This document shows, piece after piece, positions 7,887 through 9,618 of a stretch of 64,000 nt of DNA. Position numbers and translations under genes: made by a program. The stretch's first letter is position 1; every line of letters begins with the position of its first letter. Source of the stretch: a virus; the UHGV virus genome UHGV-0312576; one strand, given 5' to 3'. Below the pieces are notes generated by a model. The model made no database searches. It was given only the letters and a program-made list of their open reading frames with translations, and had not been told where the DNA came from.

Positions 7887-8666
7887 ATGGCGGTAGCTCA
7901 GAAAAGTGCTATATCTGTGGGTGTGTTATATATTCCGTCCGATTTATACAAGACAACCAGGGATATTAGTATTTCGTTTAATCAACTTTGCAAGGACTCT
8001 CATGAACGGATTAAATATAAGAAATATTGCCCATCTTGTAATAAGGAGATAAAGTCTAACGATGATATCATTAAGGGGTATGAGTACGAGAAAGGGCGTT
8101 ATGTGGTATTCACTCAGGATGAATTGGATAAGCTGAAGACTGAAAAAGATAGGACAGTCCATATAGATCATACGGCCAAGATGTCTGAGATTGATAGCAT
8201 CTACTTTGACAAGAACTACTATATGATTCCGGAGCCAGGTGCAGAGAAATCATATGAACTGTTTCGCCAGGCATTGCTGAGCCTGAAACTGGTAGCGGTC
8301 GCCAAGACTGTGTTAGGTACTAAGCAGGAACTCTTGGTATTGTATCCTACTAAGGAATGTATTATTGCCAAGATATTATTTTACAAAGAAGAAATTCAGG
8401 AGTTACCAAAGCCAATACCAAAAGTAGAGATAAAGAAGGAAGAATTGGATTTGGCAAAGCTGATGGTTAAATCTCTGGAGAAGAAATTTGATATATCAGC
8501 ATACCATGATGAATATCAGCAACGGCTGCGAGAGGCCATAACAGCTAAGATTAATGGTAAAGAGATTGTGGCTACAGATAATGTAACCCATGAAATGATA
8601 GATCCTATGGAGGCTATGAAGCAGGTAATAGAAATGCTGCAAAATGGTAAAGTTGGTACAGCATAA
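7887..8666 (+). CDS. ku: Ku protein (NHEJ DNA end-binding)
   Basis: 'SVGVLYIPSDLY...FNQL...RIKYKKYCPSCNKEI...IKGYEYEKGRYVVFTQDEL' closely matches the bacterial Ku N-terminus and core. An AAGGAAGG RBS is 8 nt upstream of the ATG at 7887. Confidence 0.85.
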   Translation: MAVAQKSAISVGVLYIPSDLYKTTRDISISFNQLCKDSHERIKYKKYCPSCNKEIKSNDDIIKGYEYEKGRYVVFTQDELDKLKTEKDRTVHIDHTAKMSEIDSIYFDKNYYMIPEPGAEKSYELFRQALLSLKLVAVAKTVLGTKQELLVLYPTKECIIAKILFYKEEIQELPKPIPKVEIKKEELDLAKLMVKSLEKKFDISAYHDEYQQRLREAITAKINGKEIVATDNVTHEMIDPMEAMKQVIEMLQNGKVGTA

Positions 8667-9601
8667 TGGATATATTTGATAAAAAGGGTATCAAACCAAT
8701 GCTGATTGCAGAGATGGTAGATCCGTTTGACTCAGATGATTATATCTATGAACTGAAGCTGGATGGGATGCGCTGCATAGCGTATTTTAATGATAGTAGC
8801 GTGGATTTTCGTAATAAGAGGGATTTTAAATTACTTCCAAGATTCCAGGAATTAAAGGATATCTACAAAAATATTAAGCATAAATGCATCCTTGATGGAG
8901 AGCTGGCCGTTATAGTGAATGGTGTTCCTGTTTTTAGTATTTTGCAACGTAGGTCTATACTGAATGATCCATTTAAGATAGAGTTGGCGTCTAAAATGAA
9001 TCCTGCTATATTTGTTGCCTTTGATGTCATATATTTTGATGGGGATGTAGTTGTTGATAAACCGCTTATAGAACGTAAGAAATTGTTGGAAGAATGTTTT
9101 GCTGAAGAGAGTAGTAAGATTGCATATAGCAGATATATTGAAGAACATGGCATAAAACTTTTTGAACTGGCAAAGCAGCAACATTTAGAGGGTATTGTTG
9201 CCAAAAAGAAGGATAGTTTATACTGGTTTGGTAAAGAAACACGGGACTGGGTTAAAATCAAGGTTATGACCGATGAGGATTTTGTGCTGTGTGGATATAT
9301 TCTAAAACCAAATAATATGACCAGCTTTGTTATAGGCCAGTATGATGGCAGTGAATTAGTTTATAAGGGGCATATTACTCTTGGTGCAAGTCTGAGGAAG
9401 CTTAATGAATACAAATACAGTATAATCAACCATTCGCCGTTTGAACATACACCTCCAGGAAATGAGAAGGCGGTATGGTTGGCTCCGGAGTTGGTCTGCA
9501 TTGTAGAGTATATGCCAGATGAGTCAATAGAGCGTCGGCAAGCGGTTCTGAAGGGAATAAGAGATGATAAGCTGCCGATGGAGTGCCAGGTAGGGGAGTA
9601 G
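8666..9601 (+). CDS. ATP-dependent DNA ligase (LigD-type ligase domain only)
   Basis: Adenylation motif I 'KLDGMR' is present. The 311-aa size fits adenylation plus OB domains. Its start overlaps the ku stop (TAATG), indicating translational coupling. Confidence 0.8.
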   Translation: MDIFDKKGIKPMLIAEMVDPFDSDDYIYELKLDGMRCIAYFNDSSVDFRNKRDFKLLPRFQELKDIYKNIKHKCILDGELAVIVNGVPVFSILQRRSILNDPFKIELASKMNPAIFVAFDVIYFDGDVVVDKPLIERKKLLEECFAEESSKIAYSRYIEEHGIKLFELAKQQHLEGIVAKKKDSLYWFGKETRDWVKIKVMTDEDFVLCGYILKPNNMTSFVIGQYDGSELVYKGHITLGASLRKLNEYKYSIINHSPFEHTPPGNEKAVWLAPELVCIVEYMPDESIERRQAVLKGIRDDKLPMECQVGE

Positions 9602-9618
9602 GGATGCTCCCCTTTTTG
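9593..9618 (+). terminator. rho-independent terminator after the ligase gene
   Basis: GGGGAG-8nt-CTCCCC hairpin followed by TTTTT. Confidence 0.7.

What the first reader, a model, noticed from the sequence alone, without database searches (positions are those of the whole stretch)
7887..9618. Translationally coupled Ku + ATP-dependent ligase (minimal NHEJ) inside phage accessory DNA
Ku (strong N-terminal and core match) and a ligase-domain-only LigD homologue (KLDGMR motif) overlap by TAATG, and a clean terminator follows them. They lie between the toxSAS operon and a TehB-like methyltransferase, next to a lysogeny switch. A phage-carried two-gene NHEJ unit could circularise or repair the phage genome. 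It could also protect it from nuclease-based defences, as described for mycobacteriophage Ku. The ligase-only LigD (no Pol or PE domains) is a minimal architecture.
Basis: partly seen in the sequence, partly recalled or inferred. Interest (0 to 1): 0.6.

Follow-up and report, generated by a model that had tools for sequence, protein, structure and literature searches.

The report
Phage-carried Ku plus ligase repair cassette
A large temperate phage of the gut bacterium Enterocloster bolteae carries an intact two-gene DNA end-joining unit (Ku plus a ligase) that is the ordinary repair operon of its host's bacterial family, and its upstream sequence suggests it is switched on in developing spores rather than used to circularise the phage.

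Summary
Ku (7887-8666) and a ligase-domain-only LigD homologue (8666-9601) overlap in TAATG and are followed by a hairpin plus U-tract. Both lie in AT-rich phage DNA found in E. bolteae assemblies and in viral contig collections.

- Ku plus a ~310-aa ligase with a 1-nt overlap is the standard operon across Lachnospiraceae (74 of 84 distinct junctions). It is not a special phage form.
- The 1.8-kb unit is a discrete cassette. Its closest relative outside this phage family lies among chromosomal aromatic amino-acid genes. Other copies lie in at least five other phage lineages.
- Sister phages carry deleted copies, so the pair is dispensable for propagation. Intact copies are under strong purifying selection (dN/dS 0.02-0.08).
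- A heptamer CATACTA, matching the forespore sigma-G -10 element, lies 22-37 nt before Ku in 47 of 92 distinct loci, including this one. The scan found no sigma-70-type promoter there.

Most likely this is a moron expressed in the lysogen's forespore that gives spores end-joining repair, as YkoV-YkoU do in Bacillus subtilis. A role in circularising or protecting the phage genome is less likely. Ku homologues in gut phages of spore-formers were already catalogued in 2023. Interest is moderate.

The parts
7818..7886 (+). Cassette 5' end: promoter and leader region of the Ku-ligase unit
   Evidence: DNA homology to the sister phage L009 and to the chromosomal locus L020 starts at 7818. Homology to L002 and L007 starts at 7849. 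Flanks beyond these points are unrelated. Upstream genes are on the opposite strand, so the unit needs its own promoter. The scan found no sigma-70-type site on the + strand here.
7858..7864 (+). CATACTA heptamer, candidate forespore (sigma-G/F type) -10 element, 29 nt before the Ku ATG
   Evidence: CATACTA or CATAATA starts 20-40 nt before Ku in 47 of 92 distinct loci. Other 20-nt bins hold 0-6 such loci, and shuffles give a mean of 0.87 and a maximum of 4. The base after the heptamer is A in 38 of 58. The motif matches C. difficile sigma-G promoters in Saujet 2013 Table S6. In the window the motif is not enriched, and only 2 copies lie on the + strand. The -35 element in this window is poor (AATTA, 3 of 5).
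7873..7880 (+). Shine-Dalgarno sequence GGAAGGTG for Ku
   Evidence: Read directly from the sequence. It ends 6 nt before the ATG at 7887.
7887..8666 (+). Ku (bacterial NHEJ DNA-end-binding protein), 259 aa
   Evidence: Pfam Ku 8.7e-39. TIGR02772 scores 233 bits against a cut-off of 150. phrog_4873 7.9e-39. Best solved relatives are bacterial Ku structures 9VNQ (3e-40), 8V53 and 9I91. The exact 261-aa form is annotated as Ku protein in Enterocloster bolteae 90B8, ENZ38104.1. dN/dS is 0.02.
8664..8668 (+). TAATG stop/start overlap (translational coupling)
   Evidence: Read directly from the sequence. The same 1-nt overlap occurs in 74 of 84 distinct Ku-ligase junctions.
8666..9601 (+). Stand-alone LigD-type ATP-dependent DNA ligase domain (adenylation plus OB fold), 311 aa, no POL or PE domain
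   Evidence: Pfam PF01068 and PF04679. TIGR02779 aligns over its full length but scores 194 bits, below the cut-off of 227.75. The protein aligns with 1VS0 (Mtb LigD ligase domain) over residues 4-306, with motifs I-VI intact. The exact protein is E. bolteae WP_002572395.1 / ENZ38103.1. It is indexed in 459 blocks of the assembly collection. dN/dS is 0.06-0.08.
9592..9617 (+). Intrinsic-terminator-like hairpin (9-bp stem, GGGA loop) plus U5 tract. The ligase stop codon lies inside the stem.
   Evidence: Fold energy -20.7 kcal/mol, z = -3.15. Homology to sister phages ends at 9617. The tool's stricter scan did not flag it.
6435..7538 (-). Context: RelA_SpoT-domain (toxSAS-like) gene, a candidate defence gene. 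The flank on this side is replaced in sister phages.
   Evidence: Pfam RelA_SpoT 6.7e-21. PADLOC PDC-S33 5.7e-121. The flanks differ in sister phages: L009 carries a DUF3825 gene and L002/L007 an unannotated 303-aa gene just upstream of Ku instead.
9637..10347 (-). Context: class-I SAM methyltransferase, convergent with the ligase; variable among sister phages
   Evidence: Pfam Methyltransf_25 2e-14, TehB 1.4e-7. It is absent from L012, L016, L017 and L018, and TPR and C_GCAxxG genes occupy this side in L002 and L007.
11406..12745 (.). Context: putative lysogeny switch, with divergent HTH regulators at 11406-11669 (-) and 12527-12745 (+)
   Evidence: PHROG repressor and regulator families, 1e-10 and 2e-4.

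Best explanation
The region is an autonomous 1.8-kb cassette: promoter, Ku, a translationally coupled LigD-type ligase domain, and a terminator. It sits in the accessory (moron and defence) hotspot between the anti-repressor and the immunity region of a large temperate phage of Enterocloster bolteae. It is the same operon that Lachnospiraceae carry on their chromosomes.

The most likely mode of action has four steps, all inferred.
1. In a lysogen, the host's forespore RNA polymerase (sigma-G/F type) transcribes the cassette during sporulation.
2. Ku homodimers and the ligase are stored in the spore.
3. At germination, when only one chromosome copy exists and homologous recombination has no template, Ku binds broken ends and recruits the ligase to seal them.
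4. This protects the host chromosome and the prophage embedded in it, so the phage gains by raising the survival of its dormant carrier.

Shown here: gene identities, intact catalytic motifs, coupling, cassette boundaries, phage context, purifying selection, dispensability in sister phages, and conservation of the -10-like motif. Inferred: which sigma factor acts, the timing of expression, the Ku-ligase interaction, and the benefit to spores.
For: **Identity and integrity**
- Ku and ligase are identified with all ligase motifs present.

**Autonomous unit**
- Upstream genes are on the opposite strand, and a terminator hairpin follows.
- Homology to sister phages and to a chromosomal locus is confined to 7818/7849-9601/9617, with unrelated flanks.

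**Same operon as in bacterial genomes**
- All 80 genome loci have Ku followed at once by a ~310-aa ligase. The 1-nt overlap occurs in 74 of 84 distinct junctions.
- The closest relative outside this phage family (Ku 95%, ligase 85% amino-acid identity) lies among EPSP synthase, prephenate dehydrogenase and DAHP synthase genes.

**Forespore-type promoter**
- CATACTA or CATAATA lies 20-40 nt before Ku in 47 of 92 distinct loci, against a shuffle mean of 0.87 and maximum of 4. An A follows in 38 of 58, and there is a weak G-N-A-T signal 18 nt upstream.
- This agrees with sigma-G promoters listed for C. difficile (Saujet 2013 Table S6). In B. subtilis, ykoV-ykoU belong to the sigma-G/SpoVT forespore regulon (PMC3656841).
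- The motif is retained in unrelated phage-borne copies: L100, L101, L104, L129-L132 and L138.
- It is not a general promoter of this phage. CATACTA occurs 7 times in the window against 10 expected.
- The phage's own sigma factor is not a SigF/SigG orthologue.
- The scan found no sigma-70-type site upstream of Ku.

**Not needed for phage propagation**
- L012 and L016 have a 396-bp internal ligase deletion, and L016 also has a 98-bp deletion in Ku. L017 and L018 lack 8241-10416.

**Still functional where intact**
- dN/dS is 0.024 for Ku and 0.079 for the ligase between two phage copies with different flanks.

**Integrated state and precedent**
- The exact proteins occur on E. bolteae and metagenome contigs of 0.4-1.0 Mb.
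- ykoV (K10979) is among the sporulation-gene homologues enriched in gut phages of spore-formers (PMC10294663).
Against: - In this window and its closest relatives the -35 region is a poor match (AATTA at an 18-nt spacer, 3 of 5). The promoter call therefore rests on the -10 element alone.
- No transcription data were available. The heptamer could instead be a regulator-binding site.
- No within-clade positive control was found. No SASP gene, a typical sigma-G target, occurs in the roughly 2 Mb of fetched loci.
- Whether E. bolteae already has a chromosomal ku-ligase pair could not be established. If it does, the benefit of a prophage copy is less clear.
- The Ku-ligase unit lacks the POL and PE end-processing domains, so only compatible or clean ends could be sealed.
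- Retention of a host-type promoter could simply reflect capture of the whole cassette, without the phage having been selected for that regulation.
Confidence: 0.55

Rival explanations
1. Phage life-cycle function. Ku and the ligase act on the phage's own DNA. They could join the ends of the injected linear genome, as proposed for mycobacteriophages Omega and Corndog. They could also reseal breaks made by restriction or CRISPR nucleases, or shield ends from exonucleases as Mu Gam does.
For: - Phage Ku proteins with such roles exist. Cluster J and O mycobacteriophages have 4-nt overhangs (PMC3706429), and Mu Gam protects linear DNA (PMC1378119).
- The window Ku matches the phage Ku family phrog_4873.
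- Carrying its own ligase would make the phage independent of host LigD.
- The same phage carries another nucleic-acid repair module, RNA ligase plus polynucleotide kinase.
- The cassette recurs in at least five other phage lineages, in two of them next to tail genes.
Against: - Near-identical sister phages have lost or broken one or both genes.
- The unit is not in the early operon. It is an isolated cassette between opposite-strand morons.
- The scan found no sigma-70-type promoter. The conserved upstream element is the one shared with chromosomal operons and is not used elsewhere in the phage.
- The type of genome ends of this phage is unknown.
Confidence: 0.2
2. Prophage-encoded defence against superinfection. 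End joining in the lysogen mis-joins the cohesive ends or breaks of incoming phages and blocks their replication, as recently reported for host NHEJ in Mycobacterium smegmatis.
For: - The cassette sits in a hotspot next to a candidate defence gene (PADLOC PDC-S33, 5.7e-121) and near variable genes.
- A 2026 study reports that host Ku and LigD reduce phage SWU1 growth through error-prone repair at cos sites (PMC12848934).
Against: - Neither Ku nor the ligase matches any PADLOC model.
- The same operon sits among housekeeping genes in many genomes.
- A forespore-type promoter would not give expression in growing cells, where superinfection occurs.
Confidence: 0.07
3. Passenger DNA. The cassette was captured from a bacterial chromosome by illegitimate recombination and gives the phage no benefit. 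It persists only until it is deleted.
For: - Decayed copies occur in sister phages.
- The cassette has sharp boundaries, and its closest relative outside the phage family is chromosomal.
- Its G+C content (38.4%) is slightly above the phage average of 35.5%.
Against: - Purifying selection is strong between two phage-resident copies separated by dS of 0.3-0.5 (dN/dS 0.02-0.08).
- The identical ligase protein is indexed in 459 blocks of the assembly collection.
- The pair occurs in several unrelated phage lineages, on separate branches of the Ku-ligase tree.
Confidence: 0.13

Closest known systems
Bacillus subtilis YkoV-YkoU (Ku-LigD) forespore NHEJ operon
   Same: - Ku followed by an ATP-dependent ligase in one operon.
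- The host is a spore-former.
- The upstream heptamer matches the sigma-G -10 type. The B. subtilis operon belongs to the sigma-G/SpoVT forespore regulon and protects spores against double-strand breaks (PMC3656841).
   Different: - YkoU is a 70-kDa ligase plus polymerase. The ligase here is a 311-aa stand-alone domain.
- The B. subtilis genes are chromosomal. This copy is on a temperate phage.
- Regulation here is inferred from sequence only.
'Non-conventional' Ku plus LIG-only NHEJ of Firmicutes (for example Clostridium saccharolyticum WM1, classed 'Yes-NHEJ-lig-no-pol' by Sharda et al. 2020)
   Same: Identical architecture and gene order. Ku is 52-69% identical to Lachnospiraceae homologues, and every one has the adjacent ~310-aa ligase.
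   Different: That survey found NHEJ on plasmids but no horizontally acquired chromosomal NHEJ. Here the operon is on phages and has exchanged with chromosomes.
Ku of mycobacteriophages Omega (cluster J) and Corndog (cluster O)
   Same: A phage-encoded bacterial-type Ku in the same PHROG family (phrog_4873), at about 25-31% identity.
   Different: - The mycobacteriophage records that carry Ku show no homologue of this ligase. Dependence on host LigD is my own knowledge of Pitcher et al. 2006.
- Their Ku is thought to circularise genomes with 4-nt overhangs (PMC3706429).
- The unit here brings its own ligase, has a host-type sporulation promoter element, and is dispensable in sister phages.
SPbeta prophage LigB (YoqV) and related ligases of Bacillus SPbeta-like phages
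   Same: A LigD-family ATP-dependent ligase carried by a large temperate Firmicute phage, about 30% identical over residues 9-229.
   Different: - YoqV aligns only over residues 9-229, so most of the OB-domain region is not matched.
- The SPbeta-like records show no Ku match. No record in the 50,697-genome phage collection matches both Ku and this ligase.
Phage-carried sporulation-gene homologues in human-gut phages (Schwartz et al. 2023, mBio)
   Same: That survey lists ykoV (K10979, Ku) among 31 sporulation-gene homologues enriched in phages of spore-forming hosts. This phage also carries PAPS-reductase, ParB and sigma-factor homologues, which appear in the same list.
   Different: The survey is a KO-level catalogue. 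It does not report the ligase partner, the operon structure, the promoter element, the cassette's mobility or the host.
Bacteriophage Mu Gam
   Same: A phage-encoded Ku relative that binds DNA ends and protects linear DNA from nucleases (PMC1378119).
   Different: Gam, as described in that review, acts by binding and protecting ends; no ligase partner is mentioned. I did not test Gam-family membership here. The protein here passes the curated bacterial Ku model.

Membership tests
Bacterial Ku (NCBIfam TIGR02772 Ku_bact / Pfam PF02735) | Score above the curated family threshold over the full length | tested here: met
   TIGR02772 scores 233.3 bits against a cut-off of 150, over residues 5-246 of 259. 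Pfam Ku scores 133.8 bits against a cut-off of 25.
Bacterial Ku (NCBIfam TIGR02772 Ku_bact / Pfam PF02735) | Single Ku core domain without the eukaryotic vWA or SAP domains; sequence relatives with solved homodimeric ring structures | tested here: met
   Only the Ku domain is detected. The best solved relatives are bacterial Ku chains 9VNQ, 8V53 and 9I91.
Bacterial Ku (NCBIfam TIGR02772 Ku_bact / Pfam PF02735) | Binds double-strand DNA ends and recruits or stimulates the cognate ligase | not testable with these tools
   This needs gel-shift and ligation assays.
LigD ligase domain (NCBIfam TIGR02779 NHEJ_ligase_lig) | Score above the curated threshold | tested here: not met
   194.1 bits against a cut-off of 227.75, although the alignment covers model positions 2-301 of 302. 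I therefore call it a LigD-type ligase-domain homologue, not a certified equivalog.
LigD ligase domain (NCBIfam TIGR02779 NHEJ_ligase_lig) | Nucleotidyltransferase motifs I, III, IIIa, IV and V plus OB-domain motif VI, including the adenylated lysine | tested here: met
   K31-LDGMR, LDGELAV, FVAFDVIYFDG, EGIVAKK, WVKIK and RQAVLKGIRDDK align with the corresponding motifs of Mtb LigD 1VS0.
LigD ligase domain (NCBIfam TIGR02779 NHEJ_ligase_lig) | Encoded next to ku | tested here: met
   A 1-nt overlap with Ku, conserved in 74 of 84 distinct junctions.
Full-length multifunctional LigD (TIGR02776; ligase + polymerase + phosphoesterase) | [quoted passage not shown] | tested here: not met
   - The protein is 311 aa and holds only the ligase domains. 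TIGR02776 scores 158 bits against a cut-off of 373.
- No POL or PE family appears among the window ORFs scanned against Pfam.
- None appears among the precomputed Pfam hits for called genes on related contigs, up to about 20 kb to the left and 10 kb to the right of the pair.
Forespore sigma-G/F-dependent promoter (as for B. subtilis ykoV-ykoU) | -10 element of the CAT-x-H-TA type at a promoter-compatible distance from the start codon | tested here: met
   CATACTA at 7858-7864. It is positionally enriched across loci, 47 of 92 against a shuffle mean of 0.87, and resembles C. difficile sigma-G promoters. The B. subtilis consensus itself is recalled from the literature, not computed here.
Forespore sigma-G/F-dependent promoter (as for B. 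subtilis ykoV-ykoU) | -35 element G-H-A-T-R 17-18 nt upstream | tested here: inconclusive
   The window has AATTA (3 of 5) at an 18-nt spacer. Across loci the signal is weak: G in 16 of 58, A in 32 of 58 and T in 31 of 58 at the expected positions. Some loci are perfect, for example L101 with GCATA-N18-CATAATA.
Forespore sigma-G/F-dependent promoter (as for B. subtilis ykoV-ykoU) | Transcription in the forespore, dependent on sigG or sigF | not testable with these tools
   This needs transcriptomics or reporter fusions in a sporulating lysogen.
Prophage moron (autonomous accessory transcription unit) | Own promoter and terminator, orientation independent of neighbours, variable presence among closely related phages | tested here: met
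   - The flanking genes are on the opposite strand, and a terminator hairpin follows.
- Cassette boundaries are at 7818/7849 and 9601/9617.
- Copies are deleted or decayed in L012, L016, L017 and L018.
- The promoter is inferred, not mapped.
Mycobacteriophage-type Ku used for genome circularisation | Phage genome with very short cohesive ends that require NHEJ; Ku needed for infection | not testable with these tools
   The ends of this phage are unknown. Decayed copies in sister phages argue against a requirement.

The most novel reading that the evidence does not exclude
Temperate phages may be the vehicle that spreads a complete, self-sufficient, sporulation-timed end-joining cassette among Lachnospiraceae. 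That would explain the patchy 'secondary gains' of NHEJ in this family. The phage may use the host's forespore sigma factor to insure its own genome, as a prophage or as DNA entrapped in the spore, against double-strand breaks during dormancy. In that case it would be a phage-encoded DNA-repair system scheduled by the host's developmental programme.
Probability: 0.3. Interest if true: 0.6.

Novelty: new member of a known kind. Interest (0 to 1): 0.4.

Why it matters
If the proposed mechanism holds, three things follow.
- A common human-gut prophage would convert its host's spores to a more break-resistant state. Spore survival underlies transmission of gut Firmicutes.
- Phages would be a concrete route for the sporadic, horizontally transferred distribution of bacterial NHEJ. 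A genome-wide survey could not detect such a route from composition alone (PMC7719229).
- The catalogue of sporulation-gene homologues in gut phages would gain a complete two-gene repair pathway with its regulatory signal.

It also gives a compact Ku plus 311-aa ligase pair from an anaerobe that could be tested as a minimal end-joining tool. On its own, though, the gene pair is a standard, already annotated operon, so the finding is an informative example and not a new kind of system.

Tried and rejected
- **Terminator scan.** The built-in scan found no terminator in 7400-10500. Folding shows the hairpin is real. I kept the terminator but note the disagreement.
- **Phage sigma factor.** I tested whether the phage's own sigma factor (35646-36320) might read the CATACTA element. 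It is a divergent sigma-70 member, not a SigF/SigG orthologue, and the motif is not enriched in the window. Rejected.
- **Structural genes of the window's phage.**
  - A YonG alignment from two other Ku-bearing prophages retrieved only their own relatives.
  - The 64-kb window has no convincing capsid or tail gene. The only structural label is a 'tail fiber' PHROG family for a 213-aa ORF (56443-57084), which I did not verify.
  - Phage identity therefore rests on IMG/VR and GPD membership, PHROG content and gene architecture.
  - 'SPbeta-like' is shown for L100 and L104. For this phage it is only suggested, by a YonO-type RdRP gene in the sister contig L002.
- **Context score.** A gene-size score meant to separate phage from chromosomal context did not discriminate. 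I abandoned it.
- **Shared flanks.** Window proteins have no homologues flanking Ku in the 80 genome loci. There is no shared synteny beyond the pair.
- **Positive control.** I looked for SASP genes in the fetched loci as a within-clade sigma-G control and found none.
- **871-aa protein.** BLASTP of the 871-aa protein left of the window against the YonO-like RdRP was not significant.
- **Defence models.** PADLOC gave no hit for Ku or the ligase.
- **Host chromosomal Ku.**
  - No Enterocloster genome was among the 80 best genome loci.
  - Five more distant Ku proteins belong to Lacrimispora, Hungatella, Blautia and related taxa.
  - This is not proof of absence.
- **Literature.** No paper held 'Ku-like', 'prophage' and 'ATP-dependent DNA ligase' together.
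Full report
**1. What is in the sequence**

Ku runs from 7887 to 8666 on the + strand (259 aa). It matches Pfam Ku at 8.7e-39 and passes the curated NCBIfam equivalog TIGR02772 (233 bits, cut-off 150). Its closest solved relatives are bacterial Ku structures (9VNQ at 3e-40, then 8V53 and 9I91).

The ligase runs from 8666 to 9601 (311 aa) and carries the adenylation and OB domains of ATP-dependent ligases. It aligns over residues 4-306 with the ligase domain of M. tuberculosis LigD (1VS0). 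Motifs I (K31-LDGMR), III, IIIa, IV, V and VI are all intact. It covers the whole NHEJ_ligase_lig model (TIGR02779) but scores 194 bits against a cut-off of 227.75. It has no polymerase or phosphoesterase domain.

The Ku stop codon and the ligase start codon share one base (TAATG). A 9-bp hairpin at 9592-9613 followed by five U residues folds at -20.7 kcal/mol (z = -3.15). The tool's own stricter terminator scan did not list it.

**2. The surroundings are phage DNA**

The window is about 35% G+C and has a strong + strand G/C skew from 12 kb onward. Its recognisable genes are typical of a large temperate phage:
- an anti-repressor and divergent HTH regulators
- ParB, a tyrosine recombinase and a sigma factor
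- RNA ligase plus polynucleotide kinase
- an HNH endonuclease and three tRNAs
- dozens of small ORFs with no annotation

The exact ligase protein is indexed in 459 blocks of the assembly collection. The contigs carrying it range from 73 kb to 1.03 Mb. The same gene order recurs on IMG/VR contigs of 90-165 kb and on a Gut Phage Database contig.

Exact look-up assigns both proteins to Enterocloster bolteae (strain 90B8: ENZ38104.1 and ENZ38103.1 = WP_002572395.1). Close ligase variants occur on NCBI E. bolteae contigs of 418-663 kb. The element is therefore a prophage integrated in a spore-forming gut Lachnospiraceae.

That condition is not met.

One gap remains. I found no convincing capsid or tail gene within the 64 kb, nor within about 20 kb to the left on sister contigs. 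The only structural label is a 'tail fiber' PHROG family for a 213-aa ORF.

**3. The pair is the ordinary operon of the host's family**

A scan of one genome per species returned 80 loci with Ku at 52-95% identity, mostly Lachnospiraceae. Every one has a ~310-aa ligase gene immediately downstream. In 74 of 84 distinct junctions the two genes overlap by one base, exactly as here.

Sharda et al. 2020 already class this architecture as non-conventional NHEJ ('Yes-NHEJ-lig-no-pol', for example C. saccharolyticum WM1). They find it over-represented in Firmicutes. The 'minimal architecture' is therefore real but not special to the phage.

**4. It behaves as a mobile cassette**

DNA homology between the window and its sister phages is confined to the cassette. 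It starts at 7818 or 7849 and ends at 9601 or 9617, which is promoter region to terminator. The flanks differ from phage to phage:
- L009 carries a DUF3825 gene just upstream of Ku, where the window has the toxSAS-like operon.
- L002 and L007 carry an unannotated 303-aa gene there.
- L002 and L007 carry TPR and C_GCAxxG genes on the side where the window has the methyltransferase.

The closest relative outside this phage family is in [Clostridium] clostridioforme AGR2157 (Ku 95%, ligase 85% amino-acid identity). It shares only 7818-9601 and lies among EPSP synthase, prephenate dehydrogenase, DAHP synthase, a transporter and an aminotransferase. There the cassette is 6 G+C points below its flanks.

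Other copies lie in unrelated phages:
- Konateibacter massiliensis, next to YonB, YonD and YonG structural genes and an integrase.
- A 171-kb contig with YonD, YonG, an integrase and a GIY-YIG endonuclease.
- A contig with phage-type replication genes.
- Two smaller IMG/VR phages, where the pair lies within 8 kb of a tail protein (7e-106) or a tape-measure protein (5e-115).

Of 33 IMG/VR Ku loci, 24 have a full-length ligase gene directly downstream and two more have an internally deleted one. In a Ku-plus-ligase tree the phage copies fall on separate branches. Two of them (this phage and L104) branch directly beside non-phage loci. So the cassette has moved between phages and chromosomes repeatedly.

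In contrast, no record among 50,697 deposited phage genomes matches both genes. Ku occurs only in mycobacteriophages and one faecal contig. The ligase occurs in Bacillus SPbeta-like, Rhizobium and Sinorhizobium phages, a Psychrobacillus phage and two faecal contigs.

**5. Dispensable but maintained**

Four sister phage contigs carry decayed copies:
- L012 and L016 have a 396-bp deletion that removes the central part of the ligase.
- L016 also has a 98-bp deletion in Ku.
- L017 and L018 lack 8241-10416.

The pair is therefore not needed for these phages to persist.

Where it is intact, it is under strong purifying selection. Between the window and L009, which are two phage copies with different flanks, dN/dS is 0.024 for Ku (dS 0.50) and 0.079 for the ligase (dS 0.32). 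Values against the chromosomal copy are similar.

**6. Regulation**

All genes for more than 7 kb upstream of Ku are on the opposite strand, so Ku needs its own promoter. The scan found no sigma-70-type site on the + strand between 7756 and 7886.

I aligned the upstream regions of all loci. CATACTA or CATAATA starts 20-40 nt before the Ku ATG in 47 of 92 distinct sequences. Other 20-nt bins hold 0-6 such sequences, and shuffles give a mean of 0.87 and a maximum of 4. When the sequences are anchored on the heptamer:
- the next base is A in 38 of 58;
- a weak G-N-A-T signal lies 18 nt upstream.

This is the form of forespore sigma-G/F promoters. Saujet et al. 2013 note a conserved A just downstream of the -10 element in sigma-G promoters, and their Table S6 lists -35 G(T/A)ATA and -10 elements such as ATACTAA and AATAATA. 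The B. subtilis consensus GHATR-N17-18-CATxHTA is from my own knowledge. In B. subtilis the ykoV-ykoU operon belongs to the sigma-G/SpoVT forespore regulon and protects spores against double-strand breaks.

The window has the heptamer at 7858-7864, and the unrelated phage copies keep it too. It is not a general promoter of this phage: there are 7 copies in the window against 10 expected, and only two lie on the + strand. The phage's own sigma factor is not a SigF/SigG orthologue.

The weak point is the -35 region. In this window and its closest relatives it matches poorly (3 of 5).

**7. Most likely mechanism and rivals**

My preferred reading (confidence about 0.55) is a moron expressed in the forespore of the lysogen. 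Ku and the ligase would be stored in the spore and would rejoin breaks at germination, when no sister chromosome is available. This would protect the host and the embedded prophage. The gene identities, the cassette structure, the selection pattern and the motif conservation are shown. The sigma factor, the timing and the benefit are inferred.

| Rival | Confidence | Main support | Main objection |
|---|---|---|---|
| Action on the phage's own DNA: circularisation, resealing, end protection | 0.2 | Precedents in mycobacteriophage Ku and Mu Gam | Decayed copies in sister phages; promoter evidence |
| Superinfection defence by mis-joining incoming phage ends | 0.07 | A 2026 mycobacterial study; neighbouring candidate defence gene PDC-S33 | No PADLOC hit for Ku or ligase; wrong timing if forespore-expressed |
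| Neutral passenger DNA | 0.13 | Decayed copies; sharp cassette boundaries | Low dN/dS; pair present in several unrelated phage lineages |

**8. Comparison with what is known, and novelty**

- The protein pair is a member of the known bacterial Ku plus stand-alone LigD-ligase class.
- Phage-encoded Ku is known from mycobacteriophages.
- A LigD-family ligase is known from SPbeta (YoqV/LigB, about 30% identical).
- Schwartz et al. 2023 already list ykoV (Ku) among sporulation-gene homologues enriched in gut phages of spore-formers.

What this analysis adds:
- the complete self-sufficient pair on phages
- its cassette nature and exchange with chromosomes
- the conserved forespore-type -10 element
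- the host assignment

I rate it a new member of a known kind, of moderate interest (0.4). The most novel reading still open is that phages spread a sporulation-timed repair cassette and use it to insure their own genome in dormant spores. I put that at about 0.3 probability and 0.6 interest if true.

Noticed in passing
window 10348-11405: About 1 kb next to the repressor-like HTH gene has no ORF of 60 aa or more, yet is conserved at 76-84% in sister phages. It holds two copies of a palindrome, ACWTGTTTAAACAAGT (11003-11017 and 11038-11052), and other inverted repeats. These may be operators, an origin, an attachment site or an unrecognised RNA. No Rfam family matches.
   Followed up: partly
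window 57105-57188 (+), next to tRNAs at 57564-57783: A RAGATH-27 RNA (93.7 bits, gathering score 76.1) lies just upstream of a tRNA-Gln/tRNA-Met pair. A third tRNA (Gln) is at 34846-34920.
   Followed up: no
window 6435-7755 (-): The RelA_SpoT-domain 'toxSAS' gene matches the PADLOC candidate defence family PDC-S33 (5.7e-121). A 66-aa ORF of unknown family lies just upstream of it on that strand. Sister phages have unrelated genes on this side of Ku (DUF3825 in L009, a 303-aa protein in L002 and L007), so the position is a swap hotspot.
   Followed up: partly
window 43860-46099 (+): An RNA ligase (phrog_968, 1e-59) is directly followed by a polynucleotide kinase/phosphatase-like protein. This looks like a tRNA-repair module, a second nucleic-acid repair system in the same phage.
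   Followed up: no
window 2310-3596 (-) and 40251-41444 (-): Two genes match the PHROG transposase family phrog_2199 (5.5e-71 and 2.1e-68). The first lies in a local G+C peak (42.6% against about 33%) and is 77% identical in DNA to a faecal 'Bacteriophage sp.' contig, MT837215. They are probably insertion elements inside the phage. Some sister contigs have an IS110-family transposase at the first site instead.
   Followed up: no
L012, L016, L017, L018 (sister phage contigs), corresponding to window 8120-10416: The Ku-ligase unit is decayed. L012 and L016 have a 396-bp internal deletion in the ligase. L016 also has a 98-bp deletion in Ku. L017 and L018 lack the 3' part of Ku, the ligase and the methyltransferase.
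   Followed up: yes
L013, L031, L037, L038, L040, L041 (upstream of Ku); also L063, L080 and L091: In about ten bacterial loci the ku-ligase pair lies within 10 kb of a Y-family (UmuC/DinB-like, judged by eye) polymerase gene and a ~103-aa partner. In six of them these genes sit directly upstream of Ku. Several loci (L031, L040, L041, L080, L091) also have an SRAP-family gene nearby. From my own knowledge of SPbeta, this echoes the yolD-uvrX and yoqW-ligB pairs and suggests a recurrent DNA-damage-tolerance island.
   Followed up: partly
L105 14972-17587 (about 13 kb left of the window start in sister contigs); L002 41-2317: The sister contig L002 has a PF05183 (RdRP, YonO-type RNA polymerase) gene about 7 kb upstream of Ku. 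Contigs of the window's own type have instead an 871-aa protein with no Pfam hit. That protein contains FRSP and GADQDSD motifs resembling the YonO-like catalytic motifs, but BLASTP similarity is not significant.
   Followed up: partly
Ku versus ligase identities across loci (for example L101, L104, L010): Ku and ligase similarities disagree. For example, L101 against L010 is 88% for Ku but 69% for the ligase, and L100 against L104 is 79% and 72%. This suggests recombination inside the cassette.
   Followed up: no
window 49634-50635, 54684-55463, 36341-37750: Other accessory genes: a PAPS-reductase-like protein (a yitB homologue, also in the Schwartz 2023 list), an ADP-ribosylglycohydrolase, and a GmrSD_N/NsnA-like protein.
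   Followed up: no
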